From assembly GCA_903831815.1 (NCBI GenBank), contig CAIKZC010000010.1, positions 14,914-78,913 of the forward strand: a stretch of DNA of 64,000 nucleotides, read 5' to 3'. Made by a program: the position numbers and the translations under genes. The notes below the pieces were generated by a model. The model searched no databases. It was not told the origin of the DNA and saw only the letters and a list, made by a program, of their open reading frames with translations. The stretch is from an uncultured bacterium. Lineage in GTDB: Bacteria; Patescibacteriota; Minisyncoccia; Phycocordibacterales; UBA11359. Below, piece by piece: positions 19,984 through 64,000 of the stretch (position 1 is the first letter of the stretch; every line of letters starts with the position of its first letter).

Positions 19984-19993
19984 GGCAGTAGTT

Positions 19994-21991: not shown

Positions 21992-22019
21992 GAATATTTA
22001 GATAGACCATAGTAGTATT

Positions 22020-22241: not shown

Positions 22242-22247
22242 AAATTT

Positions 22248-22757: not shown

Positions 22758-22762
22758 AAACC

Positions 22763-23896: not shown

Positions 23897-23901
23897 AATA
23901 T

Positions 23902-24132
23902 ATGCACTGCACAAATTGTGGGAACAAAAATGATCCTGATACAAAATTCTGTGGTAAATGCGGAGCTGAGCATATCGTGAAAGACACAGACTCAAAAATA
24001 AATTTTGTATCTAATTCTACTTGGGCTACTCAAACAACAGGTGTCAAAATTGCAATATACATAGTACTTGCATTTGCTGGTCTAATACTTGTTTCTATGA
24101 TTCTTTTGTATATTCCTTCTTTTTGGCGTTAA
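23902..24132 (+). CDS. Small zinc-ribbon protein with C-terminal TM anchor
   Basis: MHCTNCG...KFCGKCG zinc ribbon, then IAIYIVLAFAGLILVSMILLYI. Confidence 0.5.
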   Translation: MHCTNCGNKNDPDTKFCGKCGAEHIVKDTDSKINFVSNSTWATQTTGVKIAIYIVLAFAGLILVSMILLYIPSFWR

Positions 24133-24326
24133 TGGCGGTCTATCCTGTAGAGAAATTTGTAAGATAAGCCTAAATTAAACGGCTTACTTATGTGTGGCTA
24201 TTCGCAAGTTGTGGATATCCAACAGCTTGACTTTTGTAGCCCCATGGAGTAAGATACTAAGTGAAAGTCACCTGCGCCAGCGAAAGCTGTGTGCAGGTTT
24301 TCGTTATGGGGTGTATAATACAGGCC

Positions 24327-25004: not shown

Positions 25005-25013
25005 AATCTATAT

Positions 25014-25667
25014 ATGCATAATATAATATTCAGACACTTTTCGGAGAAAAATACTTCCAATGTTGGTTCAATTGTTGATTGGATAACTATTCTCACATTT
25101 ATTACAACAATCGTTATTTTCTTAATTGATAGTTATTTCAATCGAAGACAAGAACATGAAAAGTGTTTGAATAGATTACTGTCTTTGAAATTTGAGCTTC
25201 AAAAAAATACGAATATAATAAATAAGTTTATCAACGAAATTGAAAAACAGTTATTAAGCGGGAGTAAAGTGGTTTATTACAGGTACGACACTTTGGTAAC
25301 GGAGTCTCTTATTTCAAGTGGAGAAATATTGGACTCGGATTTTCTTAGAAACCTTGATGCAATTTTAGGTGAAGAAAAACAAATAAACAGGCTTTTGGAC
25401 AGCATTGAAAAAATGGCAGATATGTCGCACGTAGATTCTGGTGACATTGCAAATTTGTTTAAAAATAGAATAACCACTGCTTCAAATTTGGTTGTATCAA
25501 TAAACAAAAATTTGACCAAATATTATCCAAAGGTAATCGATGGATTAGGTTCATATATTAGAAAAACAGAGGCAAAGAAATTTTTGGGCGTAAAGGCTTT
25601 TAATGTTTGTACTAATGAAAAGGAGATTAAAGAGGAGTTTTGGAAGGAGAAATATCAAATTTTATAG
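25014..25667 (+). CDS. Hypothetical protein with N-terminal TM helix
   Basis: 217 aa, TM ITILTFITTIVIFLI followed by a helical cytoplasmic domain. Confidence 0.4.
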   Translation: MHNIIFRHFSEKNTSNVGSIVDWITILTFITTIVIFLIDSYFNRRQEHEKCLNRLLSLKFELQKNTNIINKFINEIEKQLLSGSKVVYYRYDTLVTESLISSGEILDSDFLRNLDAILGEEKQINRLLDSIEKMADMSHVDSGDIANLFKNRITTASNLVVSINKNLTKYYPKVIDGLGSYIRKTEAKKFLGVKAFNVCTNEKEIKEEFWKEKYQIL

Positions 25668-25693
25668 CCACGATACCCTTAAACTCCTGGTGT

Positions 25694-25743
25694 GCCCTTA
25701 TATTCCCACAAACTTGGTCCCAATTCCATTTAACGAGGGTCAC
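25694..25743. repeat. Direct repeat copy 1 (50 bp, 45/50 identical to 26286..26335) flanking the NUDIX gene
   Basis: GCCCTTATATTCCCACAAACTTGGTCCCAATTCCATTTAACGAGGGTCAC. Confidence 0.6.
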
Positions 25744-25791
25744 TCGTGAACATCGTGAATGTTGTGAACATCTCTGGTACAATCATCTGAT

Positions 25792-26247
25792 ATGGATAAA
25801 AAGATTATTATTCGATGCAGAGCTATTATTCTCCACAAAGGAAAATTGTTGGTTGTTAAACATTCACCGGAAAATACTTTTTATGTGTTGCCTGGAGGCC
25901 ACTTTGAATGGGGCGAGGAGGTGAAGGAGTGTATGAGTCGTGAATTGGAGGAAGAGCTTGGCATAAAAGGTGATGTGGGGAGATTGTTTTATGTAAACAA
26001 TTTTGTGTGCGACGATACGGATTATATAAGTAAGGGTACACAATCTATTGAATTTTTCTTTGAAATAAAAAACTCTGCTGATTATGCAAATATGAACAAA
26101 CCAACTGGTTCGCATGCCGATGAGATCTATGAACTCAGATGGGTTAGCAAAGACGATGATGTGAATATTATGCCACTAAGTATTAGTAAAGATTTAAGAG
26201 ATGGTGAGCTTGGGTCTGAATCGCCCCGCTTCATTAGAAGTCAATAA
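25792..26247 (+). CDS. NUDIX hydrolase
   Basis: Nudix box GGHFEWGEEVKECMSRELEEELGI. Confidence 0.8.
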   Translation: MDKKIIIRCRAIILHKGKLLVVKHSPENTFYVLPGGHFEWGEEVKECMSRELEEELGIKGDVGRLFYVNNFVCDDTDYISKGTQSIEFFFEIKNSADYANMNKPTGSHADEIYELRWVSKDDDVNIMPLSISKDLRDGELGSESPRFIRSQ

Positions 26248-26285
26248 ATGGGTGTTACCTGACTAAAGCACTTAATTCCTGAAAA

Positions 26286-26335
26286 GCCCTTATATTTCCA
26301 CAAAGTTGGTTCCAATTCCATCTAACGTGGGTCAC
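26286..26335. repeat. Direct repeat copy 2 (matches 25694..25743); its GGGTCAC end abuts the left inverted repeat of the recombinase element
   Basis: GCCCTTATATTTCCACAAAGTTGGTTCCAATTCCATCTAACGTGGGTCAC. Confidence 0.6.
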
Positions 26336-27860
26336 ATTCAGATACTTCGGCAGTGGTGAGCGTAAAATGGGAGCGCGCCGCAGGCGCGCTGTAGGGTGAG
26401 AGGGAGGATTTCCCCTTGCGGGTGCGGACGAAAATGGAGGGCGGGCAAAATGAGATTGAGATAGTTTTGTCTTTTAGCGCGGGGTTCGTTCCAAAAGAGC
26501 GGAGAAAATCTCTCATCTCATGGAGATTTTCGCCCGTTGCCAGAAACCCCGCGCGTTTTGAATCCAAAATCCATTTCCGCAGGGGTTCGACCCAATTCTT
26601 TCTCTCGGCTCGGGCAGATGAAGATTTTGCTTGAAGCGAAAGTTTTTGACGCATGAGTGCGTCTTTTTTGGTCAAATATATCTCGCGCTCAATATCTTGG
26701 TTTAAGTACAAATCAACAAGTGCGTCTAACTTCGCTTCAAGAGTCTTCAAATCTTCCTTCATCTGCCCGAGACGATTTCCCGAAGCGTTGATTTCATCGT
26801 GCTCAAATTCTCCAACTTTTTTGAGCATATAATCTGCCCACGCTTCGGGAAACGACACTGATTGAAGCTGTTCCTTTATTTGGAGAGCGAGCGCACCTTC
26901 CTGCAAATATCCCTGACTACATTTTCCTTTCTTTTTCGTGCAACGATAATAGCGATACCTCCCGCCCATTTTTCCAGTACACCATTGAGCAGTAATCATA
27001 GAGTCACATTCGCCGCAACGAAAAAGACCGGTGAAAGGAAAATTGTGGGATATTTTGCTATGCCTCGGATGCGCTCGCTCCTCCAATCTTTTCTGTACAG
27101 CTTCAAACAGGGTCGGAGAAAGAATCGGTGCAAAGCTTCCGGGAAAAAATTCCCCATGATGTTTGGTGAAGCCGAGATACGCTCGATTGGTCAATATTCT
27201 TTTCACGGAAGCTTTGCCAAGTGGCGTTCCGGACTTTTGTGCTACACCGTGGAGAGCCAAAAACTGCGACAACGAAACTAGGGTATGTGAACCTTTTACA
27301 TATTCTTCATATGCTCGAACAATGATTTTAGATTTCACTGGATCAGGCTCTATGTTACGCGTAACGGGATTGTTCACATACCCGAATGGAGCCCGAGTCA
27401 ACCACTCTCCTCGTCGCAGTTTTTGGCGCATACCTCGCTCAACGTTTTGCTTTAAGTTGTCAGAATAATACTTACTTTGTCCGAACGCCACTTGAAGCAT
27501 AAAGAGACCATGCGGAGTTGGCTCAAACCAAAATGTCGGAAAGCGCAAAGAGACTATTTTAGAAGTGTCGACGGCATAAATGATGCGTCCACCGTCAATG
27601 CTGTTTCTGGCTAGACGGTCGGGGTGCCAGGCGAGAATTCCAACATTACCGACTTTCTCAATTTTAAGCATCATTTTGCCGAACACTTCTCTTCCGGGGC
27701 TCTTGGCGCTTTTCGACTCTTGAAATTCCTCAAGGATTTCAAGATTTTCTCTGCTCGCAAATTCACGAAGTTCTACAAGCTGGGCAGGAATGCTCATGAC
27801 TTGCTTGTCGTCATCTTCAGTACTCTTGCGAGCATAGAGAAAATATTTTGGTTTGTTCAT
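26322..27860 (-). CDS. Large serine recombinase (512 aa) of the IS-like element
   Basis: YARKSTEDDD catalytic-serine motif; resolvase + recombinase domains; zinc ribbon CGECDSM...YYRCTKKKGKC; coiled coil; last ~45 codons lie inside the left inverted repeat. Confidence 0.75.
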   Translation of the reverse strand: MNKPKYFLYARKSTEDDDKQVMSIPAQLVELREFASRENLEILEEFQESKSAKSPGREVFGKMMLKIEKVGNVGILAWHPDRLARNSIDGGRIIYAVDTSKIVSLRFPTFWFEPTPHGLFMLQVAFGQSKYYSDNLKQNVERGMRQKLRRGEWLTRAPFGYVNNPVTRNIEPDPVKSKIIVRAYEEYVKGSHTLVSLSQFLALHGVAQKSGTPLGKASVKRILTNRAYLGFTKHHGEFFPGSFAPILSPTLFEAVQKRLEERAHPRHSKISHNFPFTGLFRCGECDSMITAQWCTGKMGGRYRYYRCTKKKGKCSQGYLQEGALALQIKEQLQSVSFPEAWADYMLKKVGEFEHDEINASGNRLGQMKEDLKTLEAKLDALVDLYLNQDIEREIYLTKKDALMRQKLSLQAKSSSARAERKNWVEPLRKWILDSKRAGFLATGENLHEMRDFLRSFGTNPALKDKTISISFCPPSIFVRTRKGKSSLSPYSAPAARSHFTLTTAEVSECDPR

Positions 27861-36762: not shown

Positions 36763-37353
36763 TTATCTGTTTGTAACTTGGGATTCACCTGGCAGAAACG
36801 ATATCTGATTGAAAGGGAAGAGTCTCATGAACGGTCTTCCGATGATATATTTTTTGTCGAGCGGTCCCCAAGATCGAGAATCAAAACTGGCGGCGCGATT
36901 ATCACCCATTGTGAAGTATTGGCTGTTGGAAAGAGTTATCGTAAGTTTGTTGGAAGTAATATTGGTTGGCGCCACATACTTTTCCGTCAAAGTGAAACCA
37001 AGAGGATGATCTTTGTTGGTAATAATGACCTTGGAACCCTCGATTTGGACTGTTTCTCCGGGAAGTCCGATAACGCGTTTAATGAAATATTTGCTGGTAT
37101 CGTTCGGATATTTGAAGATGATGACATCGCCTCGCTCGATTGGTTCAAAACGATATGTAAGTTCGTCAACTATCAGATATTGATTGGAGGCGAATGTTGG
37201 GTCCATTGAAGAACCGTCAACAATGAAAGGTTGGGCAACAAAAAAGCGAATTGGAAGGATGATGGCGAGAGCGATAATGGCAAATATTGCAGTATCCTTC
37301 CAGAAATTTGCTTTTTTAGGAGGAAGAGTAGTTTCTACAATTTTTGTTTCCAT
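36763..37353 (-). CDS. lepB: Signal peptidase I
   Basis: Catalytic Ser box GSSMDPTF, Lys box YFIKRVIGLPGE, box E GDNRAASFDSRSWGPL. Confidence 0.85.
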   Translation of the reverse strand: METKIVETTLPPKKANFWKDTAIFAIIALAIILPIRFFVAQPFIVDGSSMDPTFASNQYLIVDELTYRFEPIERGDVIIFKYPNDTSKYFIKRVIGLPGETVQIEGSKVIITNKDHPLGFTLTEKYVAPTNITSNKLTITLSNSQYFTMGDNRAASFDSRSWGPLDKKYIIGRPFMRLFPFNQISFLPGESQVTNR

Positions 37354-45181: not shown

Positions 45182-45350
45182 TCCTTTGATTACGGTTTCG
45201 TGACTTATAAAAACAACATCTGCATATAGACTGTTCCTTTTAAATATAATGTCAAGTTAATAAATTTTGGAGGAAATACCTACGAAATATGATTTACTTT
45301 GCTCAAGCTATCCACTTCCTACTTTACTCAGTGTGTCATATAATAGAAGC

Positions 45351-45887
45351 ATGTTTGCTAATCCGCAGGAAAATCTTGAAAAGTTCGGACTTTCTCCCGG
45401 AACAATCGTTGCTGATCTTGGCGCCGGAACAGGGCACTATACTTTAGCTGCAGCCAAAATGGTGGAGGGAAAGGATATGAACGGCAAGGTTTACGCTATT
45501 GATGTTCAAAAAGACTTGCTCGACAGGATAAAAACGGAAGCTAATCGCGAACACCTCGCCAATATTGAAATAATTTGGGGTAATGCCGAGAAAATTGGCG
45601 GCACTAAACTGCACGATGGCAGTGTCGATGTCGTTATTGCTTCAAATATCTTTTTTCAAGTCGAGGATCGGGTTTCTTTCGCCAAAGAAATCTCGCGAAT
45701 TCTTAAGTCTAAAGGACGTCTATTGTTTATCGAGTGGAGCGATTCGTTTGGCGGTATCGGACCACACAAAGATGCCGTGGTGACCGAAAATCAAGCCCGA
45801 GATTTTTTTGAAAAGAACGGTTTTGTAATTGAAAAAGGACTAGCGGTCGGTTCGCATCATTATGGGCTTGTAATTAGAAAAAAATAA
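45351..45887 (+). CDS. Class I SAM-dependent methyltransferase
   Basis: GTIVADLGAGTGHYTLAAAKMV motif I, VYAIDVQKDLL post-I; start at internal Met (ORF track start 45267). Confidence 0.65.
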   Translation: MFANPQENLEKFGLSPGTIVADLGAGTGHYTLAAAKMVEGKDMNGKVYAIDVQKDLLDRIKTEANREHLANIEIIWGNAEKIGGTKLHDGSVDVVIASNIFFQVEDRVSFAKEISRILKSKGRLLFIEWSDSFGGIGPHKDAVVTENQARDFFEKNGFVIEKGLAVGSHHYGLVIRKK

Positions 45888-45888: not shown

Positions 45889-47217
45889 ATGGCTAATTTA
45901 AGTAAATTTCAATTATTTTTTATTGGTGGTCTGATCGTTGCTATTGTGGCGGCGGTCGGAGTTTTTGCTTTAAACAAGTCTGCCGGTGGCGGTTCTACGG
46001 CAACAATAACAATTTGGGGAACTTTACCTGACGCGACTATACAGGAATTTCTTCAAAAAACCGAAATTTCCACATTGCTCGATGCCAAAAAAGTTAATGT
46101 CGTTTATGTCGCAAAACCGGCTGATACTTTTGACCGAAATGTCGTTGAAGCAATCGCGAGCGGAAAGGGTCCTGATGCGGTCATGATCTCTCAGGATGCA
46201 ATCTTGCAATATTTGGACAAGATCGTTCAAATTCCTTTTTCCTCTTTTCCTGAACGCACGTTCAAGGATATGTACATCCAGGAAGCAGAATTGTTCCTGA
46301 CTGATCAAGGTGTCGCCGCAGTGCCATTCACGATTGATCCATTAGTTATGTATTGGAATCGCACATTACTTACAAATGCCGGTATTTCCAATCCACCAAC
46401 GCTTTGGTCTCAGCTTTATGTCCCAGATGGAGTTATTGCTAAAATTAACAAGACTGACGTTAATAATAATATTGTCAAAACCGCTTTGGCTCTTGGAACC
46501 AATAATAATGTTTTTCACTCCAAGGATATTTTGTCTCTACTTATGATGCAGGCCGGAGCGCCGATAGTGGTGAAAAATACCAATGGTAGTTTGCAAAATG
46601 CATTATCAAATTCAAATAGCTCCATAAATCAGAACGGAGCGGAAGCGGCTCTCAGTTTTTACACGCAGTTCGTTGATCCGGTCAAGAGTATTTATTCATG
46701 GAACACTTCTTTGCCACTTTCACGAGATATGTTTACAGCAGGTGACTTGGCCTTATATTTTGGATATGCCAGCGAACTCGGCAATCTAAATGCTCGTAAT
46801 CCAAATCTCAATTTTGATGTTGCTCTTATGCCACAAAGTCAGTCAAGCTCGGTCAAAATGACATATGGCAAGGTTTATGGTTTGGCAATTTTAAAAAGTT
46901 CTCCGAATGTTGTGGCGGCCACCAATGCTTTTTATGCTTTAACTTCGTCAGCGGCACAAACGGTATGGAGTAACGAAAGCGGATATCCACCGGTGGTCCG
47001 AAGTTTATTGACACAAAAAACCAGCAGTCCTTTTATGTCGGTTTTCAACACCGCGGCTCTTCAAAGTCAGGGATGGCTCGATCCAAATCGCTCCGCTACG
47101 AACGAAATATTTAATGATATGATTGGGTCAGTGATCTCGGGCGACAAACAGCCTTCAGGAGCTGTGCAAGATGCGGGGAACAGTTTAGATCAATTGCTAA
47201 AAGGATTTTCCAATTAA
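45889..47217 (+). CDS. Extracellular solute-binding-protein-like secreted protein
   Basis: N-terminal signal anchor; ~440 aa with type 1/2 periplasmic binding protein-like composition; weak similarity only. Confidence 0.4.
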   Translation: MANLSKFQLFFIGGLIVAIVAAVGVFALNKSAGGGSTATITIWGTLPDATIQEFLQKTEISTLLDAKKVNVVYVAKPADTFDRNVVEAIASGKGPDAVMISQDAILQYLDKIVQIPFSSFPERTFKDMYIQEAELFLTDQGVAAVPFTIDPLVMYWNRTLLTNAGISNPPTLWSQLYVPDGVIAKINKTDVNNNIVKTALALGTNNNVFHSKDILSLLMMQAGAPIVVKNTNGSLQNALSNSNSSINQNGAEAALSFYTQFVDPVKSIYSWNTSLPLSRDMFTAGDLALYFGYASELGNLNARNPNLNFDVALMPQSQSSSVKMTYGKVYGLAILKSSPNVVAATNAFYALTSSAAQTVWSNESGYPPVVRSLLTQKTSSPFMSVFNTAALQSQGWLDPNRSATNEIFNDMIGSVISGDKQPSGAVQDAGNSLDQLLKGFSN

Positions 47218-47222: not shown

Positions 47223-47660
47223 ATGCTTAAAAATTTAGCGAAAAAAATATCAATAACCCTTCTAATTTCATTTTGCTTGTGGGGAACTTTCAGTTCAACT
47301 ATTTTGGCGGCTGATTCTGCGCTTGTTCAGTGCGGAAGAGAAGGTAGTCCCGGTGTGAATGCTACGAGCGGAACACCTCTTGCATTGGGATGCGGATTTG
47401 CCGATTTTATTAAACTCATAAATACGATCATAAATTACTTGATTATCATTTCGATGCCGCTTGCCGCCGTGGCCTTTGCTTGGGCCGGTTGGTTATATCT
47501 ATCGGCGGGCGAAGATACGGGTAAAGTAAAAACTGCTCGTGCGATATTTACTGATGTGGGCATTGGTTTGATTATTCTTTTGTCCGGATGGTTGGTGTTT
47601 AAATTAATCGCCGACAACTTTTTAAACACGTTTTATGCCGGCAGCACGTTTTTAAATTAA
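47223..47660 (+). CDS. TrbC/VirB2-like small membrane (pilin-like) protein, paralogue 1 of 5
   Basis: Signal/TM at N-terminus, then two closely spaced C-terminal TM helices separated by a short charged loop (AGWLYLSAGEDTGKVKTARAIF). Confidence 0.5.
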   Translation: MLKNLAKKISITLLISFCLWGTFSSTILAADSALVQCGREGSPGVNATSGTPLALGCGFADFIKLINTIINYLIIISMPLAAVAFAWAGWLYLSAGEDTGKVKTARAIFTDVGIGLIILLSGWLVFKLIADNFLNTFYAGSTFLN

Positions 47661-47666
47661 ATTATT

Positions 47667-48194
47667 ATGAAAAAAACATTTTTGATCATAGGGATAATTT
47701 CGGTGATGGTGTCGTCGTTTTATTTTATGTCAGATCGTTTAGTTTTTGCTGATAATTTGGCTGTGAACCTTCCTTCTCAGAACACTTCTGCAAGTGATAA
47801 TACTTTAATCCCTTCGCAGAACACTTCTGCTGGTGACAATGTGTCCGTTAACCCTTCTTCAATTTCAGATCACTCGGGAGAAAATAATTCAATTGGAATA
47901 CAAAATCCCTTAAAAAACATCAATTCGATCCCACAACTCATAGGAGCGGTGTTAAAATTCGTAGTTAATTTACTTTCCATAGCCGGTGCGCTTTATATCA
48001 TTTGGTCTGGATTTATGTTCGTCAAAGCTCAAGGTAATGAGAAAGAATTGGAAGCGGCGAAAAAATCTTTCGTAAATGCTATCATAGGGATGGCTATAAT
48101 CTTGGGAGCATGGGGACTCGCACAAGTTATTGCCAAAACGATCGATAGTGTGACGGGTGTTCAATCGGGTTTCGGAACGGTTTTAGGTGGTTAA
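47667..48194 (+). CDS. TrbC/VirB2-like small membrane protein, paralogue 2 of 5
   Basis: Same architecture: N-terminal TM, C-terminal TM-loop-TM (IIWSGFMFVKAQGNEKELEAAKKSFVNAIIGMAIILGAWGL). Confidence 0.5.
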   Translation: MKKTFLIIGIISVMVSSFYFMSDRLVFADNLAVNLPSQNTSASDNTLIPSQNTSAGDNVSVNPSSISDHSGENNSIGIQNPLKNINSIPQLIGAVLKFVVNLLSIAGALYIIWSGFMFVKAQGNEKELEAAKKSFVNAIIGMAIILGAWGLAQVIAKTIDSVTGVQSGFGTVLGG

Positions 48195-48218
48195 AATAAT
48201 TAGTAATTAATATTTAAT

Positions 48219-48626
48219 ATGAAAAAATGTCTTAAGTTGGTGGCGCTTGGTTCAATGTTTTTTGCCGCCCAGAATGTTTTTGCGGCGGCTCTTATTCCTC
48301 CGGGTACGGATCTTACCGGATTGATCGGAAATGTTAAAACCATTTTGAGTAGTTTGGTTGGTTTGCTGGTTGTCGCCGCTCTCGTTGTATTCCTATATGG
48401 AACTTTCATTTTTATCGCTAAAGCAAGTCAGGGTGACGCCGAAGGTCGAACAGAAGGAAGAAAGTTCATGATCTATGGGGTCATCGGTCTCGCTGTCATG
48501 ATTTCTGTTTGGGGACTTGTTGAATTCGTGACAAATGCATTAGGTGTAGGTCATACGCTCATTCAATTTAATAGTAACGCAGGCCCAGTCGATAACAGTA
48601 CTCAAAACGGTCCGGAACGAATATAA
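48219..48626 (+). CDS. TrbC/VirB2-like small membrane protein, paralogue 3 of 5
   Basis: Signal peptide + FLYGTFIFIAKASQGDAEGRTEGRKFMIYGVIGLAVMISVWGL. Confidence 0.5.
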   Translation: MKKCLKLVALGSMFFAAQNVFAAALIPPGTDLTGLIGNVKTILSSLVGLLVVAALVVFLYGTFIFIAKASQGDAEGRTEGRKFMIYGVIGLAVMISVWGLVEFVTNALGVGHTLIQFNSNAGPVDNSTQNGPERI

Positions 48627-48731
48627 CTATGGACTTCCGGCACATTAGATATCCACAGTTTGAATTGTAGGGCCTGGAATAAAGGGGTATAATATATATT
48701 GTGATTATTTATTAGCAGTTTTATTAATATT

Positions 48732-49103
48732 ATGAATAAAATAAAAGTTATCGTAAGCGCATTGTTGGGTTCTTTGGGTCTTTTGCCGGCATTGGCTTTT
48801 GCTCAAAGCAACTTTAATTTGTCTTCGGGTGGAATTAGTGGCATCCTCGTTCAAATTCAGGATATTTTGGGTATGGTGGTTCCTTTGCTTATTGGCCTTG
48901 CCGTCATCGTTTTCCTATGGGGCGTTTTGAAGTTCCTCATGAATGCTAATGATCCTGATAAACGAGGTGAAGGCAGAATGTTTATGATCTGGGGTATTGT
49001 CGGAATCGTCATAATGGTATCTGTCTGGGGCCTTGTAGGGTTCGTTCAGCGAGCAACAGGTGTTCGTGGCGGTGCTGCTCCACAAGCTCCTGCAATTCCT
49101 TAG
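48732..49103 (+). CDS. TrbC/VirB2-like small membrane protein, paralogue 4 of 5
   Basis: Signal peptide + FLWGVLKFLMNANDPDKRGEGRMFMIWGIVGIVIMVSVWGL. Confidence 0.55.
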   Translation: MNKIKVIVSALLGSLGLLPALAFAQSNFNLSSGGISGILVQIQDILGMVVPLLIGLAVIVFLWGVLKFLMNANDPDKRGEGRMFMIWGIVGIVIMVSVWGLVGFVQRATGVRGGAAPQAPAIP

Positions 49104-49119
49104 AACTCTCTAATTTCAA

Positions 49120-49383
49120 ATGGATATTGTCGACAAAATAATTACTGTTATAGTAAATCCTCTTCTAACCCTTCTTTTCAGTTTGGCCGGTCTTTATTTT
49201 CTGTATGGAGTGTTTAAATTTATCCAAAATGCGGAAAATTCGGAAAAGAGGCTAGAGGGTGCGAGACATATGCTGTGGGGAATCATAGGTATTGCGATAA
49301 TGTTTTCGGTATTTGCTTTCATTCATGTGATCCGTCAAACTGTCGGTCCAAGTCCGTATAATGAGACGCCGAGTTTGAAATAG
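49120..49383 (+). CDS. TrbC/VirB2-like small membrane protein, paralogue 5 of 5 (shortest)
   Basis: LYGVFKFIQNAENSEKRLEGARHMLWGIIGIAIMFSVFAF. Confidence 0.45.
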   Translation: MDIVDKIITVIVNPLLTLLFSLAGLYFLYGVFKFIQNAENSEKRLEGARHMLWGIIGIAIMFSVFAFIHVIRQTVGPSPYNETPSLK

Positions 49384-49421
49384 GGGAGAAAGAAAAAGTA
49401 AAAAAAGAAATAAAAAAAGAT

Positions 49422-49449
49422 GGCGCGGGACTCAGCTGAGTCCCGCGCC
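49422..49449. terminator. Perfect 28-bp palindrome GGCGCGGGACTCAG/CTGAGTCCCGCGCC (bidirectional terminator)
   Basis: Flanked by A-run upstream and TTTTG downstream, between the plus-strand TrbC array and the minus-strand GC island. Confidence 0.65.
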
Positions 49450-49467
49450 ATTTTGCTTCGCATGTAG

Positions 49468-50076
49468 CTACTGGTTTCCGACCAGTATCTGCATCGGACG
49501 GTCATCTCCTTCCGGCCGAATCGGTTCCACGTACATAGTCGTGAATGCTTTCGGCTTTATCGGAACCTTTCTGGAGTCGGAGTATTTGATCGGTTCCGGA
49601 TCGACCAAGTGTTCCTTCCCTTGGGGATCGGTGATCATTCGGTAGATGAGAAAATCATCATCTTTCAGTGCCGGTCTTGCACAAAGTCCGGCGTACTTCT
49701 TGATGGTCACTTTAACTCGCTGGTGAGGATAAGCCCAGATCTCATCCATCTGGCCGGCGGGTGCAGGGGATTCCGCTATTGGCGCCGACTTCGCGGCATC
49801 CGTTGCTCGAGGTGTAGACGAGGGGATCCCGCTGTAACTCTCGCAGATTCGTACCGTGACGATGACCACAATCGTCATTGCAACTATGATCGAGGTCGCT
49901 GCGATCTTGTCGATACGACGAGCTCGCCACAGCTTCCACATGAGACCTGTGACAATTGTCACAAACATCAAGATCCAGAAAGAAGTGGGGTGCAGCAAAT
50001 AGTACAAAATATCTAACGCTGCAACGATAGCGGCTATTATTGCCACCCACTTCGTAAATGTCCGTAAACTTGGCAT
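49468..50076 (-). CDS. Hypothetical membrane protein (GC-rich island)
   Basis: Three N-terminal TM helices then a soluble domain; GC clearly above genome average. Confidence 0.4.
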   Translation of the reverse strand: MPSLRTFTKWVAIIAAIVAALDILYYLLHPTSFWILMFVTIVTGLMWKLWRARRIDKIAATSIIVAMTIVVIVTVRICESYSGIPSSTPRATDAAKSAPIAESPAPAGQMDEIWAYPHQRVKVTIKKYAGLCARPALKDDDFLIYRMITDPQGKEHLVDPEPIKYSDSRKVPIKPKAFTTMYVEPIRPEGDDRPMQILVGNQ

Positions 50077-50202
50077 TGCTACCTCTCTTTCTTTTCCGTG
50101 TTTTTTGTTGTCAAAGGTAGCAACGCGCTACCAAACTAGGCACAGAGTATTGTATCATAATACAACGATAAAGTCAAGAATCGTGAAAATATATAAAAAA
50201 AT

Positions 50203-50240
50203 AACCGCGGACACCAGTTTTTAAACTGGCGCCGCGGTTT
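50203..50240 (-). terminator. Intrinsic terminator hairpin (AACCGCGG...CCGCGGTT with inner palindrome CCAGTTTTTAAACTGG)
   Basis: Downstream of the stop of 50273..51085 on the minus strand, followed by a T-run on that strand. Confidence 0.5.
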
Positions 50241-50272
50241 GTTGACCTTCTTCGTCGTAGTGGTCAAGAGTG

Positions 50273-51085
50273 CTACGGTGACATTGGGACTCCGGAAGCG
50301 GAGTTAGCCCCAGCCACAGACCTCGAAGCGGAAATAGATTCGGAAGCAGCAGACTGAGTCTGCTGTTGTCCCTGAACCTGAAATGCGTTACCGCCTCTTC
50401 CACCGGCACCGCCCAAACCGATGCCACCACCACCGCCGGCTCCGCCCGCGCCGCCGTTAGCTTTGACCACAGTGGAACTGCGTGCTGGCCGAATTAATGC
50501 TCCGGCTACAGCAACACCTGTGCCTTGAGCAATACCTTGCCCAAGACCGTCCATTATGCGTGTGTTTTTGCCAGACGCACTTCCGCTGGCGGAATTCACC
50601 AGGTAAGAATTTCCTGGTTGATTTTCAACCGGCGGATTGGGAACAGCAGTCATTTGCTGTGGCTGCGGAGTGCCGTAGTTTGGAACGGCAGTCGGCGTTT
50701 GCATAATCGGCTGCCGAGCATCGTAGGTGACCTGAGCTGCACCGAATGGTTGCTGCGTCGGCGCCCACGGTTTCGGCGATGTAAATCCGGTTGTCGGAAT
50801 GTTGGCCGGCGGCAGCTGCGGCGGTTGCTGCGCACTTATGTCAGTCGTCTGCTGTGGTGGCGCCACGGGCTCGATCTCAGTAGCGTAGGTGTCGACTTTC
50901 GTCACCACTACGCCACTGTCGTCTTTGTAAGAGACGACGCGATCACGAAGCTTCATGTTGCCGTTTTGGTACGGCTCGCCGATCCAGTGAGAGGTCTCGT
51001 ACTTGTTTGCGCAGCCAACGAGGCCACACAAGATTGTCGCCATAATAGCGACGATGAACAGTTTCATTTTCATGGTTTCTCCCAA
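50273..51085 (-). CDS. Pro/Gln-rich lipoprotein with Gly-rich C-terminus (GC-rich island)
   Basis: Signal peptide + lipobox LVGC; long P/Q-rich low-complexity region; GGAGGAGGGGGIGLGGAGGRGG tract. Confidence 0.5.
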   Translation of the reverse strand: MGETMKMKLFIVAIMATILCGLVGCANKYETSHWIGEPYQNGNMKLRDRVVSYKDDSGVVVTKVDTYATEIEPVAPPQQTTDISAQQPPQLPPANIPTTGFTSPKPWAPTQQPFGAAQVTYDARQPIMQTPTAVPNYGTPQPQQMTAVPNPPVENQPGNSYLVNSASGSASGKNTRIMDGLGQGIAQGTGVAVAGALIRPARSSTVVKANGGAGGAGGGGGIGLGGAGGRGGNAFQVQGQQQTQSAASESISASRSVAGANSASGVPMSP

Positions 51086-51130
51086 AAAAGAACGAAAAAC
51101 AAAACGAAGGATCGAACTTCCTTGCTCAGC

Positions 51131-52204
51131 TTATGGCTGAGAGGGCAAGGAGAGTGGAATCGTTAACAACCCCGATCCTGCTGGCGCATACGGAAAGTTT
51201 CCCGGACTCGCCATGTAGCGTGTAAAACCTCCACCTTGGTAAAATCGCGAGGGACTGACGTTTGTCACCGGGGTTACCAGTTTGGCAACTTCAGGTGAGT
51301 AAACGATCTGGCCGGTCGCGTTGTCTACCGTAAAAGGAAGGCTATACATGACAACATACGGCCAATCGTTTGGCACGCCGTTCACCCAAAAGCGGGTGTG
51401 TTTGCTGCCATCGGGTTGGCTAAAGTCGTTCATGTAGACACCGTCAACAGCCTTGACCAAAGCTCCATCATCCAGACACAAAAGGATATTCACCTTCCAT
51501 ATCGGAGGAGCATTGCCAGAAAGTATGGCGCCGCGATCCTTTTGGGGGATTTGCGCCAACACTTTCTGAAAATCTTGACTCAGTCCATCGAGCTTGCTTC
51601 CCAGCTTGTCTCCAAGCTCTTTCATGTCGGCCTTGGTAGCCAATGGACTTGTCGTCGGATCGAAGATCTGGCGACGCTGTTCGTCGAACTGCGCCTGAGT
51701 TTTCTTGACGACACGTTCGGCCACATCGTCGGCATATTTCGTCCAGTTATCGGCGGTGACGAGCTTCTCCTTATCTTTGAGAATCTCGTTCCGCAATTCG
51801 CTGATGATCTTGCCGCTTGAGTCGCTTGCGCCAGACTTCATGCTATCGGACTTCAAGAGCCAGATACCGAATCCGACAACAACGATCAGGGCGATGATAG
51901 CCAGGATAAACCAAGCAATCTCCGACCACTTGGCAATCCTCGACGCGACCTGACTCGGTGCGGGTGCCGGTTGCCCAGGCGGATTGGGATCCGTGTTCCT
52001 GGTTGCGACACCAGGGACCAAACCGAACTGTTCCATGGATATTCTTCTCAGATAACCTGCGCGCTCCATCTCCTCGACTACAGGATCGCGAATTTCTTCG
52101 CGTCCTCGTGCGGGCGCAGGTGCGGGTGCCGGTGGAACTGTACTCGACGCAGGTGCAGGGCCCGGATTAGGGGGACTTGCAGGGTTATTCGGAACTTGTG
52201 ACAT
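51131..52204 (-). CDS. Hypothetical surface protein: Pro-rich N-terminus, one TM, extracellular domain (GC-rich island)
   Basis: PAPAPAPA-type N-terminus, TM WFILAIIALIVVVGFGIWLL, ~230-aa C-terminal domain. Confidence 0.45.
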   Translation of the reverse strand: MSQVPNNPASPPNPGPAPASSTVPPAPAPAPARGREEIRDPVVEEMERAGYLRRISMEQFGLVPGVATRNTDPNPPGQPAPAPSQVASRIAKWSEIAWFILAIIALIVVVGFGIWLLKSDSMKSGASDSSGKIISELRNEILKDKEKLVTADNWTKYADDVAERVVKKTQAQFDEQRRQIFDPTTSPLATKADMKELGDKLGSKLDGLSQDFQKVLAQIPQKDRGAILSGNAPPIWKVNILLCLDDGALVKAVDGVYMNDFSQPDGSKHTRFWVNGVPNDWPYVVMYSLPFTVDNATGQIVYSPEVAKLVTPVTNVSPSRFYQGGGFTRYMASPGNFPYAPAGSGLLTIPLSLPSQP

Positions 52205-61224: not shown

Positions 61225-64000
61225 ATGAAAAATATTTTAAACGAAATCGCAGATGGGTATTTATTCAACAAATATTTTCATATTAAAAAACTGGTCTCAA
61301 TTATTTTGATCATTATTCTCGCGATTCCTTTTGGATTTTGGCCAACAAAACAAGCGGAGGCTGCAGATCAAACTATCACTCTAACTTCCCAAAATGACTT
61401 TAAAGCCGGAACAATCGAAGATGGTTTGGATGCGGATCAGTCAGCCGGAGATTTAAGATTGAAATATAAAACTATTACCTCTACCGATACCACGGACAGT
61501 GATTTTTATTTGGGCAAGACTTTAACTGACGGTTTTTTTATGAGTAACGTTTCATCAGCCGATGGTGGAAAAGTGACAATTAATCAAGGGTATACCTATC
61601 AGAGTAATTCTTCTCCCGCTCTTAGTAATTATCCGTATGCCTCCTTTTTAGACGCCTCCTCCAGTCTTTTGTATGTTAGCACTTGGGGTGGAGGCCTATC
61701 CGTCATTGATACTAAAGGCACAGTCAGTCCGTCTGACGACACTCTGCTGAAATCATATACTACGGCTACCACCCCGGCTATTGCTAATAATAAGGTCATG
61801 TATACTATTTTAGATGCTTCCTCCAGTCTTTTGTATGTTAGCACTAATGGCGGTTTATCTGTCATCGATACTAAAGGCACAAAAGATCCGGCAGACGACA
61901 CTTTGGTCATAACATATACTACAACCTCCACTCCAGCTATTAATGACAACATTGTGAATCATTCCTTTTTGGACGCTTCCTCTAGTCTTTTATACGTTAG
62001 CACCGGTGAAGGTGGAGTATCCGTCATTGATACTAAAGGCACAAAAGATCCGACTGACGACACTTTAGTTAGAACATATACTACAACTAGCACCCCGGCT
62101 ATTGGTAGTGGCAATGTGTATCATTCCTTTTTAGACGCCTCCTCCAGTTATTTGTATATCAGTGTTTATGGTAGCGGTCTATCCGTCATTGATACTAAAG
62201 GCACAAAAGATCCGTTAGACGACACTTTAGTTAAAACATATACTAAAGCTAGCAGCCCGGCTATTGGAAGTAATAATGTCGAGCATTCCTTTTTAGACGC
62301 CTCCTCCAGTCTTTTGTATGTTAGCACTTGGGGTGGCGGTCTATCCGTCATTGATACTAAAGGTACAAAAAGTGCGGCTGACGACACTTTGGTTAGATCG
62401 TATACCACAACTAGTACTCCAGGTATTAGTGACGATAATACTTATTCTACTTATTTGGACGCTACCTCCAGTCTTTTGTATGTTAGCAATTATGGCGGTT
62501 TATCGGTTGTTAGCTTAAATAATCTTTACAACACCCGAGGTGTATATAACAAAACTGTATCAGACGATAAAACTAATTTTTGGCAAACTAAAACCGAAAT
62601 GCCATCAGCAGTACTGGCTGCTGGAAGTGCGGTAATTGGCGACACAATATATGTTATCGGAGGAATGGATAGTGATAGCAGTCCGGTTAATACCGTGTAT
62701 GCTTATGATACTAAAACTAATACTTGGACAACCAAAGCACCACTTCCGGCAGAACGATCCAATGTTTTAGTCGGAGTAATAGGTGGTAAATTGTATGTAG
62801 CTGGTGGAAAGAATTCTGATGGAGATGCCACCAAAACTGTATATGAATATAATCCCACTTCCAATGCGTGGGCGACTAAAACCTCTATGTCACAAGATAG
62901 GATTGGTCCTGTAGGCGGAGTCTATAATGGCAAGCTGTACGTAGGAGGCGGGATGAATAGTTCGTGCGGGGTAAGTGCGTCAAGTATTGAGGAGTATAAT
63001 CCTGATCTAAATACTTGGACTACAAAAACTCCGGCACCGAGCAAAAAACTCGGCAGTGCAACCGCCCAATTTATTAACGGAAAGTTATATGTCGCGGGTG
63101 GGCAGAGTTGTAGTCCATTATCTGACTCATTACTAATATATGATGTGGCGACCGATTCATGGACTACGGGTGCTCCTCTTCCGTTTCATAGAGTTGGGGG
63201 AACATCCGCCGTGCACGATGGCAAGCTATTGTATATTGGTGGATCGGATGGTGTTAATGTTCATTCAGATATGTATATTTATGACCCCGTAACGGATATT
63301 TGGAATTTTTTTAACAATCTTCCGCAAGCTAGGCACAGAGCAATAGCTGAAATTGTTAACGGTGATCTGTATGTGATTGGGGGAGCATTAGATGTTTATG
63401 GCGAAATAACAAATATCACCTACAAACTCCCTTCGACCTATCTCTCCGACACATATCAAAAAAATGCATACAGTCAATTATCTTGGGCGGCCACTACTCC
63501 TTCCGGCACGTCAGTGGAGTTACTCTACTCTTTTGATGACGGAAAAACCTACACCAGTCTTGGCACTACTCCGGGCGACTTCTATCTCCCACCAAACAGA
63601 AGTTACGACTTAACCTACAAAGCTATCCTTTCAACTGACAACACTTCAGTTACTCCAAGTCTGGATAGTGTAACTGTCAAATATGCGCAAGGTGAAAACG
63701 GTCTCTACGCCACATCTTCCGCTGCTTTCACATCCGCTATTGTAGATTTCGGATCGGGACGAGATACTGGAAGATTTATCGCCGACGCCACAACAACAGC
63801 CAGCACTTCCATCGCATATTCCTTCCGTTCCGGATCTACCGCGACACCGGATGGAACATGGACAGGTTGGCAAGTGATCACAGATACATTGCCTGCATAC
63901 TCTCGATACGGTCAGGTCAAAGCTACCCTCAGCACCACCGACCTATCACTCACCCCCACACTTTCCACTCTCACATTTACAACCGACGAGACTGTACCAG
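61225..64000 (+). CDS. Very large secreted/surface protein, 3'-truncated at window end: signal anchor, six tandem ~53-aa repeats, six Kelch-type beta-propeller blades, further S/T-rich domain
   Basis: Hand translation shows an open frame from ATG 61225 to the window end (no stop; absent from the ORF track for that reason); MKNILNEIADGY...IILIIILAIPFGFWPTKQAEA signal; repeats LDASSSLLYVSTWGGGLSVIDTKGTKDP.DDTLV.TYTTTSTPAI; Kelch blades (IYVIGG...W...PLP, KLYVAGG...). Confidence 0.6.
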   Translation, partial: MKNILNEIADGYLFNKYFHIKKLVSIILIIILAIPFGFWPTKQAEAADQTITLTSQNDFKAGTIEDGLDADQSAGDLRLKYKTITSTDTTDSDFYLGKTLTDGFFMSNVSSADGGKVTINQGYTYQSNSSPALSNYPYASFLDASSSLLYVSTWGGGLSVIDTKGTVSPSDDTLLKSYTTATTPAIANNKVMYTILDASSSLLYVSTNGGLSVIDTKGTKDPADDTLVITYTTTSTPAINDNIVNHSFLDASSSLLYVSTGEGGVSVIDTKGTKDPTDDTLVRTYTTTSTPAIGSGNVYHSFLDASSSYLYISVYGSGLSVIDTKGTKDPLDDTLVKTYTKASSPAIGSNNVEHSFLDASSSLLYVSTWGGGLSVIDTKGTKSAADDTLVRSYTTTSTPGISDDNTYSTYLDATSSLLYVSNYGGLSVVSLNNLYNTRGVYNKTVSDDKTNFWQTKTEMPSAVLAAGSAVIGDTIYVIGGMDSDSSPVNTVYAYDTKTNTWTTKAPLPAERSNVLVGVIGGKLYVAGGKNSDGDATKTVYEYNPTSNAWATKTSMSQDRIGPVGGVYNGKLYVGGGMNSSCGVSASSIEEYNPDLNTWTTKTPAPSKKLGSATAQFINGKLYVAGGQSCSPLSDSLLIYDVATDSWTTGAPLPFHRVGGTSAVHDGKLLYIGGSDGVNVHSDMYIYDPVTDIWNFFNNLPQARHRAIAEIVNGDLYVIGGALDVYGEITNITYKLPSTYLSDTYQKNAYSQLSWAATTPSGTSVELLYSFDDGKTYTSLGTTPGDFYLPPNRSYDLTYKAILSTDNTSVTPSLDSVTVKYAQGENGLYATSSAAFTSAIVDFGSGRDTGRFIADATTTASTSIAYSFRSGSTATPDGTWTGWQVITDTLPAYSRYGQVKATLSTTDLSLTPTLSTLTFTTDETVP
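61640..62520 (+). repeat. Six tandem ~159-165-bp coding repeats inside the large surface-protein gene
   Basis: Recurrent ttagacgcctcctccagtcttttgtatgttagcac...gtcattgatactaaaggcacaaaagatcc units; they explain the spurious antisense ORFs 61629..61952 and 62166..62408. Confidence 0.75.

What the first reader, a model, noticed from the sequence alone, without database searches (positions are those of the whole stretch)
47223..49383. Tandem array of five paralogous TrbC/VirB2-like small membrane (pilin-like) genes
Five consecutive same-strand genes (87-175 aa) share an N-terminal signal/TM and a C-terminal TM-loop-TM hairpin with a short charged loop, the hallmark of TrbC/VirB2-type pilin-like proteins that are expanded in CPR genomes. 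Their N-terminal regions are highly divergent. An upstream secreted solute-binding-like protein (45889..47217) and a downstream perfect-palindrome terminator frame the block. Diversified tandem pilin-like paralogues could represent surface-structure variation for host attachment.
Basis: partly seen in the sequence, partly recalled or inferred. Interest (0 to 1): 0.55.

Follow-up and report, generated by a model that had tools for sequence, protein, structure and literature searches.

The report
Five-gene VirB2-like pilin operon, CPR
This is a tandem set of five small pilin-like membrane proteins (Pfam T4SS_pilin) in a Parcubacteria-type ultrasmall bacterium; such pilin arrays are already described in these bacteria, so it is a new example of a known thing, with a conserved link to a solute-binding protein as the only unreported detail I found.

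Summary
Five same-strand genes sit at exactly the stated coordinates. All match Pfam PF18895 (T4SS_pilin), are homologous to one another (hhalign 96-100%), and have the TM-loop-TM hairpin. One correction: the fifth gene has no signal peptide.

The kind is already published. PMC12102498 reports 441 tandem 'VirB2 arrays' of 2-11 genes in Patescibacteria. A six-gene PF18895 array is essential in Southlakia epibionticum (PMC10633639).

What I add:
- The organism is a Paceibacteria relative of Ca. Taylorbacteria.
- The operon methyltransferase - solute-binding protein - five (sometimes six) pilins follows gyrA in all 8 genomes examined, down to 42% solute-binding-protein identity.
- Position 1, 2 and 5 genes have clean positional orthologues, and populations from other samples are 99.95-100% identical. 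This is an old, fixed set of specialised subunits, not a variation cassette.
- A perfect TATAAT lies upstream of gene 4 in 8/8 genomes, pointing to an internal promoter and to genes 4 and 5 as candidate main subunits.
- No VirB4, VirB6 or VirD4 lies in the 64-kb window or within 8-10 kb in the related loci, so dependence on a type IV secretion machine is inferred, not shown.

Verdict: new member of a known kind, modest interest.

The parts
45339..45344 (+). Candidate -10 box (TATAAT) of the operon promoter. It ends 6 nt before the methyltransferase ATG, which implies a leaderless or near-leaderless mRNA. A TATCCAC motif lies at 45309-45315.
   Evidence: TATAAT sits at -12 from the orthologous start in the window, L004, L006 and L008. 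This is a consensus match plus conservation; promoter function is inferred.
45351..45887 (+). Class I SAM-dependent methyltransferase (UbiE/COQ5-like), first gene of the operon. The mechanical ORF starts at TTG 45267, but the orthologous start is ATG 45351.
   Evidence: Methyltransf_31/11/25 hits, E 1e-15 to 1e-18. It is 78-81% identical to the L004 and L006 orthologues. It lies directly upstream of the solute-binding gene in 8/8 genomes.
45889..47217 (+). Sugar-type extracellular solute-binding protein with an N-terminal signal peptide or membrane anchor. No ABC permease or ATPase gene is nearby.
   Evidence: SBP_bac_8 and SBP_bac_1 hits. The nearest solved structures are sugar ABC binding proteins (4r9f, E 6e-8). 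Its stop is 5 nt before the P1 start. It is followed by the pilin array in 8/8 genomes, down to 42% identity.
47223..47660 (+). P1, pilin-like protein: signal peptide, conserved Cys pair in the exposed N-terminal segment, TM-loop-TM hairpin, conserved C-terminal tail.
   Evidence: PF18895 at 24.4 bits (cut-off 26.6). Its best hit in other genomes is P1 in 55 of 56 comparisons. hhalign against the P2, P4 and P5 groups gives 96-98.5%.
47667..48194 (+). P2, pilin-like protein with the longest exposed N-terminal segment, rich in S, N and T and containing an imperfect 13-residue duplication.
   Evidence: PF18895 at 36.0 bits; weak PF04956 at 17.4 bits. Best hit in other genomes is P2 in 56 of 56 comparisons.
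48219..48626 (+). P3, pilin-like protein of the P3/P4/P5 subgroup.
   Evidence: PF18895 at 34.8 bits; also DUF5671 at 29.5 bits. hhalign of P3 against P4 gives 100%.
48650..48693 (+). Candidate internal promoter in the P3-P4 gap: TATCCAC 48650-48656, TTGTAG 48665-48670, a 17-nt spacer, and TATAAT 48688-48693.
   Evidence: A perfect TATAAT lies within 120 nt upstream of the P4 start in 8/8 genomes, against 0.064 expected per 120 nt from its frequency in the window. The gap shows no unusual RNA structure (z 0.18). Promoter function is inferred.
48732..49103 (+). P4, pilin-like protein and best family match; candidate main subunit.
   Evidence: PF18895 at 42.0 bits. The AlphaFold2 model (pLDDT 79.9) has a signal helix at 3-25, a helix at 34-70, a loop at 71-74 and a helix at 75-109. 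There are 172 homologues, some named 'pilin' by NCBI.
49120..49383 (+). P5, shortest pilin-like protein, with no signal peptide.
   Evidence: PF18895 at 25.4 bits; NF045849 at 36.7 bits. hhalign of P4 against P5 gives 99.8%. The lack of a signal peptide is conserved in its orthologues.
49420..49451 (.). Perfect 14-bp palindrome with a 4-nt loop; a bidirectional terminator shared with the convergent gene 49468-50076.
   Evidence: The scan calls it on the minus strand, with tail CTTTTTTTAT. Sequence checked. Terminator function is inferred.

Best explanation
This is a chromosomal operon of a Paceibacteria (Parcubacteria, CPR) bacterium related to Ca. Taylorbacteria. It encodes a methyltransferase, a sugar-type solute-binding protein, and five paralogous VirB2-like pilins of Pfam family PF18895.

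Shown:
- The five genes belong to PF18895 and have the hairpin architecture.
- Tandem PF18895 arrays are a described feature of Patescibacteria.
- The operon, with fixed gene order, is deeply conserved.

Inferred mechanism:
- P1-P4 are inserted through Sec and cut by signal peptidase I at their AxA sites. A Peptidase_S26 gene lies at 36763-37353.
- P5 inserts without cleavage.
- Each mature protein sits in the membrane as a two-helix hairpin, with the charged loop in the cytoplasm and both ends outside.
- A monoderm-type type IV secretion machine (VirB4, VirB6) encoded elsewhere in the genome extracts and polymerises them into a pilus or channel-lining filament that contacts the host cell.
- Each position has its own orthologue line, and P4 has its own conserved promoter. 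The five are therefore probably non-interchangeable parts: P4 (perhaps with P5) as main subunit, and P1-P3 as low-copy subunits whose variable exposed N-termini provide specificity.
- The role of the co-transcribed solute-binding protein and methyltransferase is unknown. The simplest reading is that they are functionally coupled envelope and modification partners.
For: Family membership:
- All five window proteins hit PF18895, as do 42 of 42 proteins from 8 genomes.
- NCBI names some P4 homologues 'pilin'.

Architecture:
- Hydropathy and sequence show the hairpin.
- The AlphaFold2 model confirms it.

The kind is known:
- PMC12102498 reports 441 arrays of 2-11 pilin genes, with mean identity 25% and maximum 54%. 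The range here is 19-53%.
- Southlakia SEML1_0014-0019 are six tandem PF18895 genes. All are essential and lie beside VirB6-like and VirB4-like genes.

Conservation:
- The operon is the same after gyrA in 8 of 8 genomes.
- Best hits keep their position: P1 55/56, P2 56/56, P5 51/56, P4 61/70.

Other points:
- An internal TATAAT lies upstream of P4 in 8/8 genomes.
- There is weak whole-domain similarity to bona fide VirB2: hhalign 31%, E 5e-4, 75 columns, against 0.2% for a reversed-sequence control.
- The top PDB sequence hit is the pKM101 pilin TraM, but it is not significant (E 0.18).
- The three Taylorbacteria genomes shown in the paper's Table S1 excerpt are flagged VirB4-positive.
Against: - No VirB4, VirB6, VirB3 or VirD4 lies in the 64-kb window (47 kb upstream and 15 kb downstream of the array), in about 7.3 kb beyond its left edge on another sample's contig, or within 8-10 kb in the seven related loci.
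- I could not check whether this genome has a VirB4 at all.
- PF04956 is below threshold.
- The fold search found nothing specific. The best hits are generic hairpins such as ATP synthase subunit c, with E > 0.5.
- Nobody has seen a pilus made of PF18895 proteins; pilus formation is a hypothesis even in Southlakia.
- The strict link to a solute-binding protein is not explained by a pilus model.
Confidence: 0.62

Rival explanations
1. The five hairpin proteins work with the co-transcribed solute-binding protein as a module independent of type IV secretion. For example, they could form a membrane or surface scaffold that displays or docks the binding protein for nutrient capture from the host. 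This would be analogous to the Sulfolobus bindosome, where sugar-binding proteins depend on small pilin-like proteins.
For: - The solute-binding gene lies 3-8 nt upstream of P1 in 8 of 8 genomes, down to 42% identity.
- No ABC permease or ATPase and no type IV secretion genes are nearby.
- The operon sits among housekeeping genes (gyrA, rbfA, infB, clpB), not in a secretion cluster.
- Similarity to real VirB2 is weak.
- The bindosome precedent exists (PMC3047682).
Against: - Elsewhere the same family lies beside virB4: 1135 of 1948 assemblies.
- In Southlakia it sits inside the essential type IV secretion cluster with no solute-binding gene.
- The binding protein's N-terminus lacks a prepilin-type cleavage motif. 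It reads [KR]FQ[LI], with no Gly at -1 and no Glu at +5.
- Bindosome pilin-like proteins are type IV pilins, a different fold.
Confidence: 0.15
2. The five are interchangeable variants of one pilin, kept for surface variation or for switching between host strains. This is the first reader's suggestion, and the analogy drawn in the literature with Bartonella and Anaplasma VirB2 paralogues.
For: - Paralogues are highly divergent (19-53%).
- The exposed N-terminal segments of P1 and P2 differ in length and sequence between species.
- Two genomes have an extra P4-like copy.
- PMC12102498 raises this idea.
Against: - Each position has its own orthologue across genomes whose solute-binding proteins are only 42% identical, so the duplications are ancient and every copy has been kept.
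- Gene order and even the P3-P4 gap with its promoter are conserved.
- Contigs from other samples are 99.95-100% identical.
- P5 is structurally distinct, having no signal peptide.
- There are no repeats or recombination substrates.
Confidence: 0.1
3. The five are generic small two-helix membrane proteins whose 'pilin' label is an artefact of hydrophobic composition, and the tandem arrangement has no link to secretion or pili.
For: - The fold search returns only generic helical hairpins.
- JGI gives homologues unrelated names such as YidH, HdeD and CAAX protease.
- Weak hits to many unrelated membrane families appear.
Against: - All 42 of 42 proteins hit PF18895 specifically, with best E 9e-12.
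- The family profile finds 9,196 representatives at E <= 1e-10.
- The reversed-sequence control in hhalign is flat.
- The family is physically clustered with VirB4 and VirB6 in other Patescibacteria and is essential there.
Confidence: 0.03

Closest known systems
Patescibacteria 'VirB2 arrays' (PMC12102498), including the essential six-gene array SEML1_0014-0019 of Southlakia epibionticum ML1 (PMC10633639)
   Same: - Same Pfam family (PF18895).
- Same tandem, same-strand layout of 5-6 small genes of about 100-185 aa.
- Same low within-array identity (about 25% mean, maximum 54%, against 19-53% here).
- Same hairpin model.
- Chromosomal, not on a mobile element.
   Different: - The Southlakia array lies inside the type IV secretion cluster, next to VirB6-like and VirB4-like genes, with no solute-binding gene.
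- This array lies after gyrA, is co-transcribed with a methyltransferase and a solute-binding protein, and has no secretion genes within at least 15-47 kb.
- The paper reports arrays as most abundant in Microgenomatia and Saccharimonadia; this one is in Paceibacteria.
Classical VirB2/TrbC pilins of Gram-negative type IV secretion systems (PF04956; Agrobacterium T-pilin, pKM101 TraM)
   Same: - Small protein with a cleaved signal peptide.
- Two hydrophobic helices joined by a short charged loop.
- Weak whole-domain profile similarity (hhalign 31%, E 5e-4).
- 4 of 42 relatives hit PF04956.
   Different: - The window proteins fall below the PF04956 threshold.
- The classical gene is single, lies between virB1 and virB3, and sits in a diderm system with an outer-membrane core.
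- Here there are five paralogues in a monoderm-type organism, away from any virB genes.
Mbov_0395 family pilin-like conjugal transfer protein of Mycoplasma ICEs (NCBIfam NF045849)
   Same: An 80-residue hairpin domain aligned end to end with P2-P5, from a wall-less monoderm (18-38 bits).
   Different: - All five are below the 40-bit cut-off.
- The Mycoplasma protein is encoded on a conjugative element as a single gene.
VirB2 paralogue families of Bartonella, Anaplasma and Rickettsia
   Same: Several diverged VirB2 copies in one genome of a host-dependent bacterium.
   Different: Those are read as antigenic or host-range variants in diderm pathogens. Here the copies are ancient positional orthologues with no sign of ongoing variation.
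Sulfolobus bindosome (sugar-binding proteins plus small pilin-like Bas proteins; PMC3047682)
   Same: Genetic coupling of a sugar-type solute-binding protein with several small pilin-like membrane proteins.
   Different: - Bas proteins and the binding proteins carry type IV prepilin signals and need a type IV pilus-like ATPase.
- Here the small proteins are VirB2-type hairpins, and the binding protein has no prepilin motif.
- This is an analogy only.

Membership tests
Pfam PF18895 T4SS_pilin | Score at or above the Pfam gathering threshold (26.6 bits) | tested here: met
   P2 scores 36.0, P3 34.8 and P4 42.0 bits. P1 (24.4) and P5 (25.4) are just below, but they are homologous to the others at 96-99.8% by hhalign. 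All 42 orthologues and paralogues hit PF18895 at E <= 1e-3.
Pfam PF18895 T4SS_pilin / VirB2-like architecture | Signal peptide followed by two transmembrane helices joined by a short charged loop | tested here: met
   Shown by hydropathy and sequence and by the AlphaFold2 model of P4 with helices 34-70 and 75-109. P5 lacks the signal peptide, and this is conserved in its orthologues.
Patescibacteria VirB2 array (as defined in PMC12102498) | Two or more pilin genes in tandem, or separated by one non-pilin gene, in a Patescibacteria genome | tested here: met
   Five adjacent genes with gaps of 6, 24, 105 and 16 nt. The nearest named relative is Ca. Taylorbacteria UBA11359. Taylorbacteria fall in GTDB class Paceibacteria.
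Patescibacteria VirB2 array | Low identity among array members (reported mean 25%, maximum 54%) | tested here: met
   19-53% in local pairwise alignments.
Pfam PF04956 TrbC/VirB2 | Score at or above the gathering threshold (27.9 bits) | tested here: not met
   Only P2 hits, at 17.4 bits, E 0.005. 4 of 42 relatives hit at E <= 1e-3.
VirB2 superfamily (remote homology) | Profile-profile similarity to bona fide VirB2 genes lying between virB1 and virB3 | tested here: inconclusive
   hhalign of the 42-sequence alignment against 8 plasmid VirB2/TrbC proteins gives probability 31%, E 5e-4, over 75 columns. The reversed control gives 0.2%. Single positional groups give 0.4-3.7%.
VirB2 superfamily | Fold match to solved pilin structures | tested here: inconclusive
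   Foldseek against the PDB finds no hit with E < 0.5, and the top hits are generic hairpins. The profile search of PDB sequences ranks the pKM101 pilin TraM first, at E 0.18.
Type IV secretion system component | Genomic association with VirB4, VirB6, VirB3 or VirD4 | tested here: not met
   None in the window, none in about 7.3 kb beyond its left edge on another sample's contig, and none within 8-10 kb in seven related loci.
Type IV secretion system component | A VirB4 ATPase encoded somewhere in the same genome | not testable with these tools
   The 228-kb source contig could not be fetched beyond the window. The only indirect evidence is that the three Taylorbacteria genomes shown in the Table S1 excerpt of PMC12102498 are flagged VirB4 'Yes'.
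Type IV secretion system pilin | Polymerises into an extracellular filament | not testable with these tools
   No experimental data exist for this family. It is a hypothesis even for Southlakia.
ABC-transporter solute-binding protein (SBP_bac_1 / SBP_bac_8), for gene 45889-47217 | Pfam score above threshold | tested here: met
   67.7 and 63.8 bits against cut-offs of 27 and 26. The nearest solved structures are sugar-binding proteins.
ABC-transporter solute-binding protein | Encoded next to its permease and ATPase genes | tested here: not met
   No ABC permease or ATPase was found among the window ORFs scanned. In all 8 genomes the gene is followed by pilin genes instead.

The most novel reading that the evidence does not exclude
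In Paceibacteria the VirB2-like pilins have been recruited into a dedicated, deeply conserved module with a sugar-type solute-binding protein and a methyltransferase. This module builds a surface structure that presents the binding protein to the host cell for nutrient capture. It would be a bacterial, VirB2-based counterpart of the archaeal bindosome, working with or without the VirB4 machine.
Probability: 0.12. Interest if true: 0.65.

Novelty: new member of a known kind. Interest (0 to 1): 0.3.

Why it matters
Ultrasmall CPR bacteria depend on host cells, and how they attach and feed is an open question. In the one genetically tractable species the type IV secretion cluster and its pilin array are essential, but their function is unknown.

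This locus adds a well-defined comparative case. A five-member pilin set has been kept in fixed order since before the divergence of Taylorbacteria-like and Wolfebacteria-like lineages. It has its own internal promoter and an obligate genetic partner, a sugar-type binding protein.

That argues for a heteromeric structure built from specialised subunits rather than antigenic variation. It also gives a concrete hypothesis to test, namely coupling between the binding protein and the pilins. It does not reveal a new kind of system.

Tried and rejected
1. I suspected that a 162-aa variant of P2 in another sample had lost one 13-residue repeat unit. It is only an alternative start-codon call at Met14 of the same sequence.
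2. Tandem Repeats Finder found no meaningful repeats in or between the pilin genes.
3. The fold search of the P4 model against the PDB gave only generic hairpins, so it cannot decide VirB2 membership.
4. The profile search of PDB sequences gave no significant hit.
5. The genome-contig scan with the solute-binding-protein alignment returned one locus only (Ca. Taylorbacteria UBA11359). The window's own genome was not found there, so the organism is named only by its relatives.
6. Exact look-ups returned no accession numbers or names for the window proteins.
7. I tried to extend beyond the window on the source contig. Only shorter contigs from other samples were served, and they showed LepA, MurJ and glutaredoxin on the left and nothing new on the right.
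8. I searched the T4SS paper's supplement for the assemblies of L009, L010 and L008. None was found, and the stored file is truncated.
9. The P3-P4 gap was folded as RNA and shows no unusual structure (z 0.18). I read it as a promoter region, not an RNA element.
10. A prepilin-type signal on the solute-binding protein was considered and rejected, because there is no Gly at -1 or Glu at +5.
Full report
**1. The observation**

The window holds five consecutive + strand ORFs at exactly the coordinates given:
- P1, 47223-47660 (145 aa)
- P2, 47667-48194 (175 aa)
- P3, 48219-48626 (135 aa)
- P4, 48732-49103 (123 aa)
- P5, 49120-49383 (87 aa)

The gaps between them are 6, 24, 105 and 16 nt, and P1 starts 5 nt after the stop of the upstream gene. 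Each protein has two strongly hydrophobic segments separated by a 12-15 residue charged loop. P1-P4 also have an N-terminal signal peptide ending in an AxA-type site. P5 has none and begins at the mature domain.

An HMM built from the five finds only these five among 759 six-frame ORFs of the window. Alignments of the orthologues at each position are mutually homologous at 96-100% hhalign probability. The array is real and is not a chance run of hydrophobic ORFs.

**2. Family**

[quoted passage not shown] P2, P3 and P4 score above the gathering threshold (36.0, 34.8 and 42.0 bits against 26.6). P1 and P5 fall just below it (24.4 and 25.4). NCBIfam NF045849, a pilin-like conjugal transfer protein of Mycoplasma ICEs, aligns end to end at 18-38 bits, below its cut-off of 40.

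All 42 pilin-like proteins collected from eight related genomes hit PF18895 at E <= 1e-3, and four of them also hit PF04956. The family is very large: a profile of P4 homologues finds 44,964 cluster representatives at E <= 1e-3 and 9,196 at E <= 1e-10. NCBI names some P4 homologues 'pilin [Candidatus Paceibacterota bacterium]'.

**3. Structure and remote homology**

The AlphaFold2 model of P4 (pLDDT 79.9) has a signal helix at residues 3-25 and two long helices at 34-70 and 75-109, joined by a four-residue turn. A hairpin is too generic for fold search. Foldseek against the PDB gave no hit with E < 0.5, and ATP synthase subunit c was among the top matches. The Southlakia authors' own domain classification of their pilins lists similar generic hits.

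For a direct test I fetched eight annotated VirB2/TrbC genes, each lying between a lytic transglycosylase (VirB1-type) gene and virB3 on an MPF_T plasmid. The 42-sequence alignment matches their profile at 31% probability, E 5e-4, over 75 columns covering the whole mature domain. A reversed-sequence control gives 0.2%. This is weakly supportive, not proof.

**4. Organism and conservation**

The window is ordinary chromosome. It carries an aminoacyl-tRNA synthetase, TsaD, FtsZ, FtsA, ribosomal protein S1, GyrA, IF-2, ClpB and 11 tRNAs.

The only species representative found with the solute-binding-protein alignment is Ca. Taylorbacteria bacterium UBA11359, at 70% identity. Taylorbacteria belong to GTDB class Paceibacteria.

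Eight distinct genomes share the same layout: gyrA, zero to two small genes, methyltransferase, solute-binding protein, then five pilin genes. Two genomes have six pilin genes through an extra P4-like copy. The eight are:
- the window
- L004
- L006/L007
- L008
- L009
- L010, a Ca. Wolfebacteria
- L011
- L012

In L009 and L010 the binding protein is only 42% identical to the window's. L011 and L012 were reached through P4 homologues of 40-42% identity.

Best-hit analysis shows positional orthology: P1 to P1 in 55 of 56 comparisons, P2 to P2 in 56 of 56, P5 to P5 in 51 of 56, and P4 to P4 in 61 of 70. P3 splits between P3 and P4. Among the three closest genomes, orthologues are 48-75% identical and paralogues 19-53%. 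Contigs from other samples carrying the same species are 99.95-100% identical over the array.

The five genes are therefore an old, fixed set and not a recently amplified or rapidly varying cassette. What does vary between species is the length of the exposed N-terminal segments of P1 and P2.

**5. Transcription signals (inferred)**

A perfect TATAAT lies within 120 nt upstream of the P4 start in all eight genomes. From its frequency in the window, 0.064 would be expected per 120 nt. In the window it sits at 48688-48693, with TTGTAG 17 nt upstream. The gap has no unusual RNA structure.

At the head of the operon, a TATAAT at 45339-45344 ends 6 nt before the orthologous methyltransferase start at 45351. 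The same holds in the three closest genomes, which suggests a leaderless transcript.

A TATCC[AC]C motif precedes both boxes (45309-45315 and 48650-48656). It occurs only six times on the + strand of the whole window.

The palindrome at 49420-49451 is a bidirectional terminator shared with the convergent gene, and its long T-run is on the minus strand side.

**6. What is missing**

No VirB4, VirB6, VirB3, VirD4 or type IV pilus gene was found among the ORFs of the window. None lies in about 7.3 kb beyond its left edge on another sample's contig, and none within 8-10 kb in the related loci. No ABC permease or ATPase for the solute-binding protein is present either.

I could not read the rest of the source genome. 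Whether it encodes a VirB4 is therefore unknown. The only indirect evidence is that the three Taylorbacteria genomes shown in the Table S1 excerpt of PMC12102498 are flagged VirB4-positive. The same paper reports that virB4 in Paceibacteria usually lies near dnaA and dnaN.

**7. Comparison with the literature**

PMC12102498 searched 3,035 Patescibacteria genomes with PF04956, PF18895 and CONJScan profiles. It reports 441 'VirB2 arrays' of 2-11 genes in 383 assemblies, with mean identity 25% and maximum 54%. Pilin genes lie near virB4 in 1135 of 1948 assemblies.

In Southlakia epibionticum the six tandem PF18895 genes SEML1_0014-0019 sit in the type IV secretion cluster and are essential. A 2025 review calls this the one exception to the rule that monoderm systems lack VirB2.

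The present array is therefore a member of a described kind. PMC12102498 has no occurrence of the words solute, SBP, ABC or gyrA, and its one use of 'methyltransferase' refers to KsgA near virB4. The conserved methyltransferase - binding protein - pilin operon after gyrA therefore appears to be an unreported clade-specific arrangement. I checked only that paper and part of its supplement.

**8. Mechanism**

Shown: family membership, hairpin architecture, and the conserved operon with positional orthologues.

Inferred from established knowledge of VirB2-type pilins:
- The proteins insert through Sec and are cut by signal peptidase I. A Peptidase_S26 gene is at 36763-37353.
- They are stored in the membrane as hairpins.
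- A VirB4/VirB6 machine extracts and polymerises them.

Inferred from the anatomy found here:
- The structure is heteromeric.
- P4, perhaps with P5, is the main subunit, transcribed from its own promoter.
- P1-P3 are low-copy specialised subunits.

The rival I take most seriously is that in this clade the pilins work with the solute-binding protein in a module that does not need VirB4, by analogy with the Sulfolobus bindosome. The interchangeable-variant reading is disfavoured by the orthology pattern.

**9. Verdict**

The pilin identity is supported through PF18895 rather than PF04956. The surface-variation reading is not supported. This is a new member of a known kind, of modest interest, with one conserved and apparently unreported association worth a targeted follow-up.

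Noticed in passing
window 49468-52204 (minus strand): Three ORFs (202, 270 and 357 aa) have no Pfam hits and GC of 0.51-0.57, against 0.39-0.45 for their neighbours. Related loci hold essentially no homologues; only the first matches L006 weakly. They occupy a slot between P5 and the tRNA cluster / rbfA whose content differs in every related genome (HNH in L004, LAGLIDADG in L009 and L010). It looks like a foreign island in a variable hotspot.
   Followed up: partly
window 8982-27860: This stretch holds three large serine recombinases (8982-10673, 18445-19983, 26322-27860), a Rep protein (20176-21063, PF23343), a PEP-CTERM protein (16375-17256) and several ORFs without hits. GC is low and AT skew strongly negative. 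The first recombinase abuts or overlaps a tRNA-Glu at 8971-9045. One or more integrated mobile elements are likely.
   Followed up: no
window 45309-45315 and 48650-48656; L004, L006, L008 and L009 at -82/-83 from the P4 start: The motif TATCC[AC]C precedes both candidate promoters of the operon. It occurs only six times on the + strand of the window. It may be a shared operator or promoter element.
   Followed up: partly
window 45339-45351: The TATAAT box ends 6 nt before the methyltransferase start codon in the window and its three closest relatives. This suggests a leaderless mRNA for the first gene of the operon.
   Followed up: partly
proteins P0254, P0256 and P0389, from the representative library: Many family members are single polypeptides with 2-8 tandem pilin hairpin domains, for example 336 aa with three and 820 aa with eight. 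Tandem arrays have thus been fused into 'polypilins' in some lineages. This constrains how these proteins can assemble.
   Followed up: partly
L008 4327-4791 and L010 11181-11540: Ca. Taylorbacteria UBA11359 and a Ca. Wolfebacteria genome each carry a sixth pilin gene, an extra P4-like copy inserted between P4 and P5. The extra copies may be independent lineage-specific duplications.
   Followed up: partly
window 45889-45990 and homologues P0134-P0253: The N-terminus of the solute-binding-protein family is unusually conserved: a short basic stretch, then [KR]FQ[LI], then about 20 hydrophobic residues. It is not a canonical prepilin signal and has no lipobox.
   Followed up: partly
window 61225-63999: A large ORF of more than 924 aa runs off the window end and carries many Kelch repeats (Kelch_1 E 1e-53). 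This is an uncommon architecture for a bacterium with a small genome. The same gene is present in another sample's contig (L021).
   Followed up: no
window 36763-37353 (minus strand): A signal peptidase I gene (Peptidase_S26, E 1e-43). It is the likely processing enzyme for the AxA sites of P1-P4.
   Followed up: no
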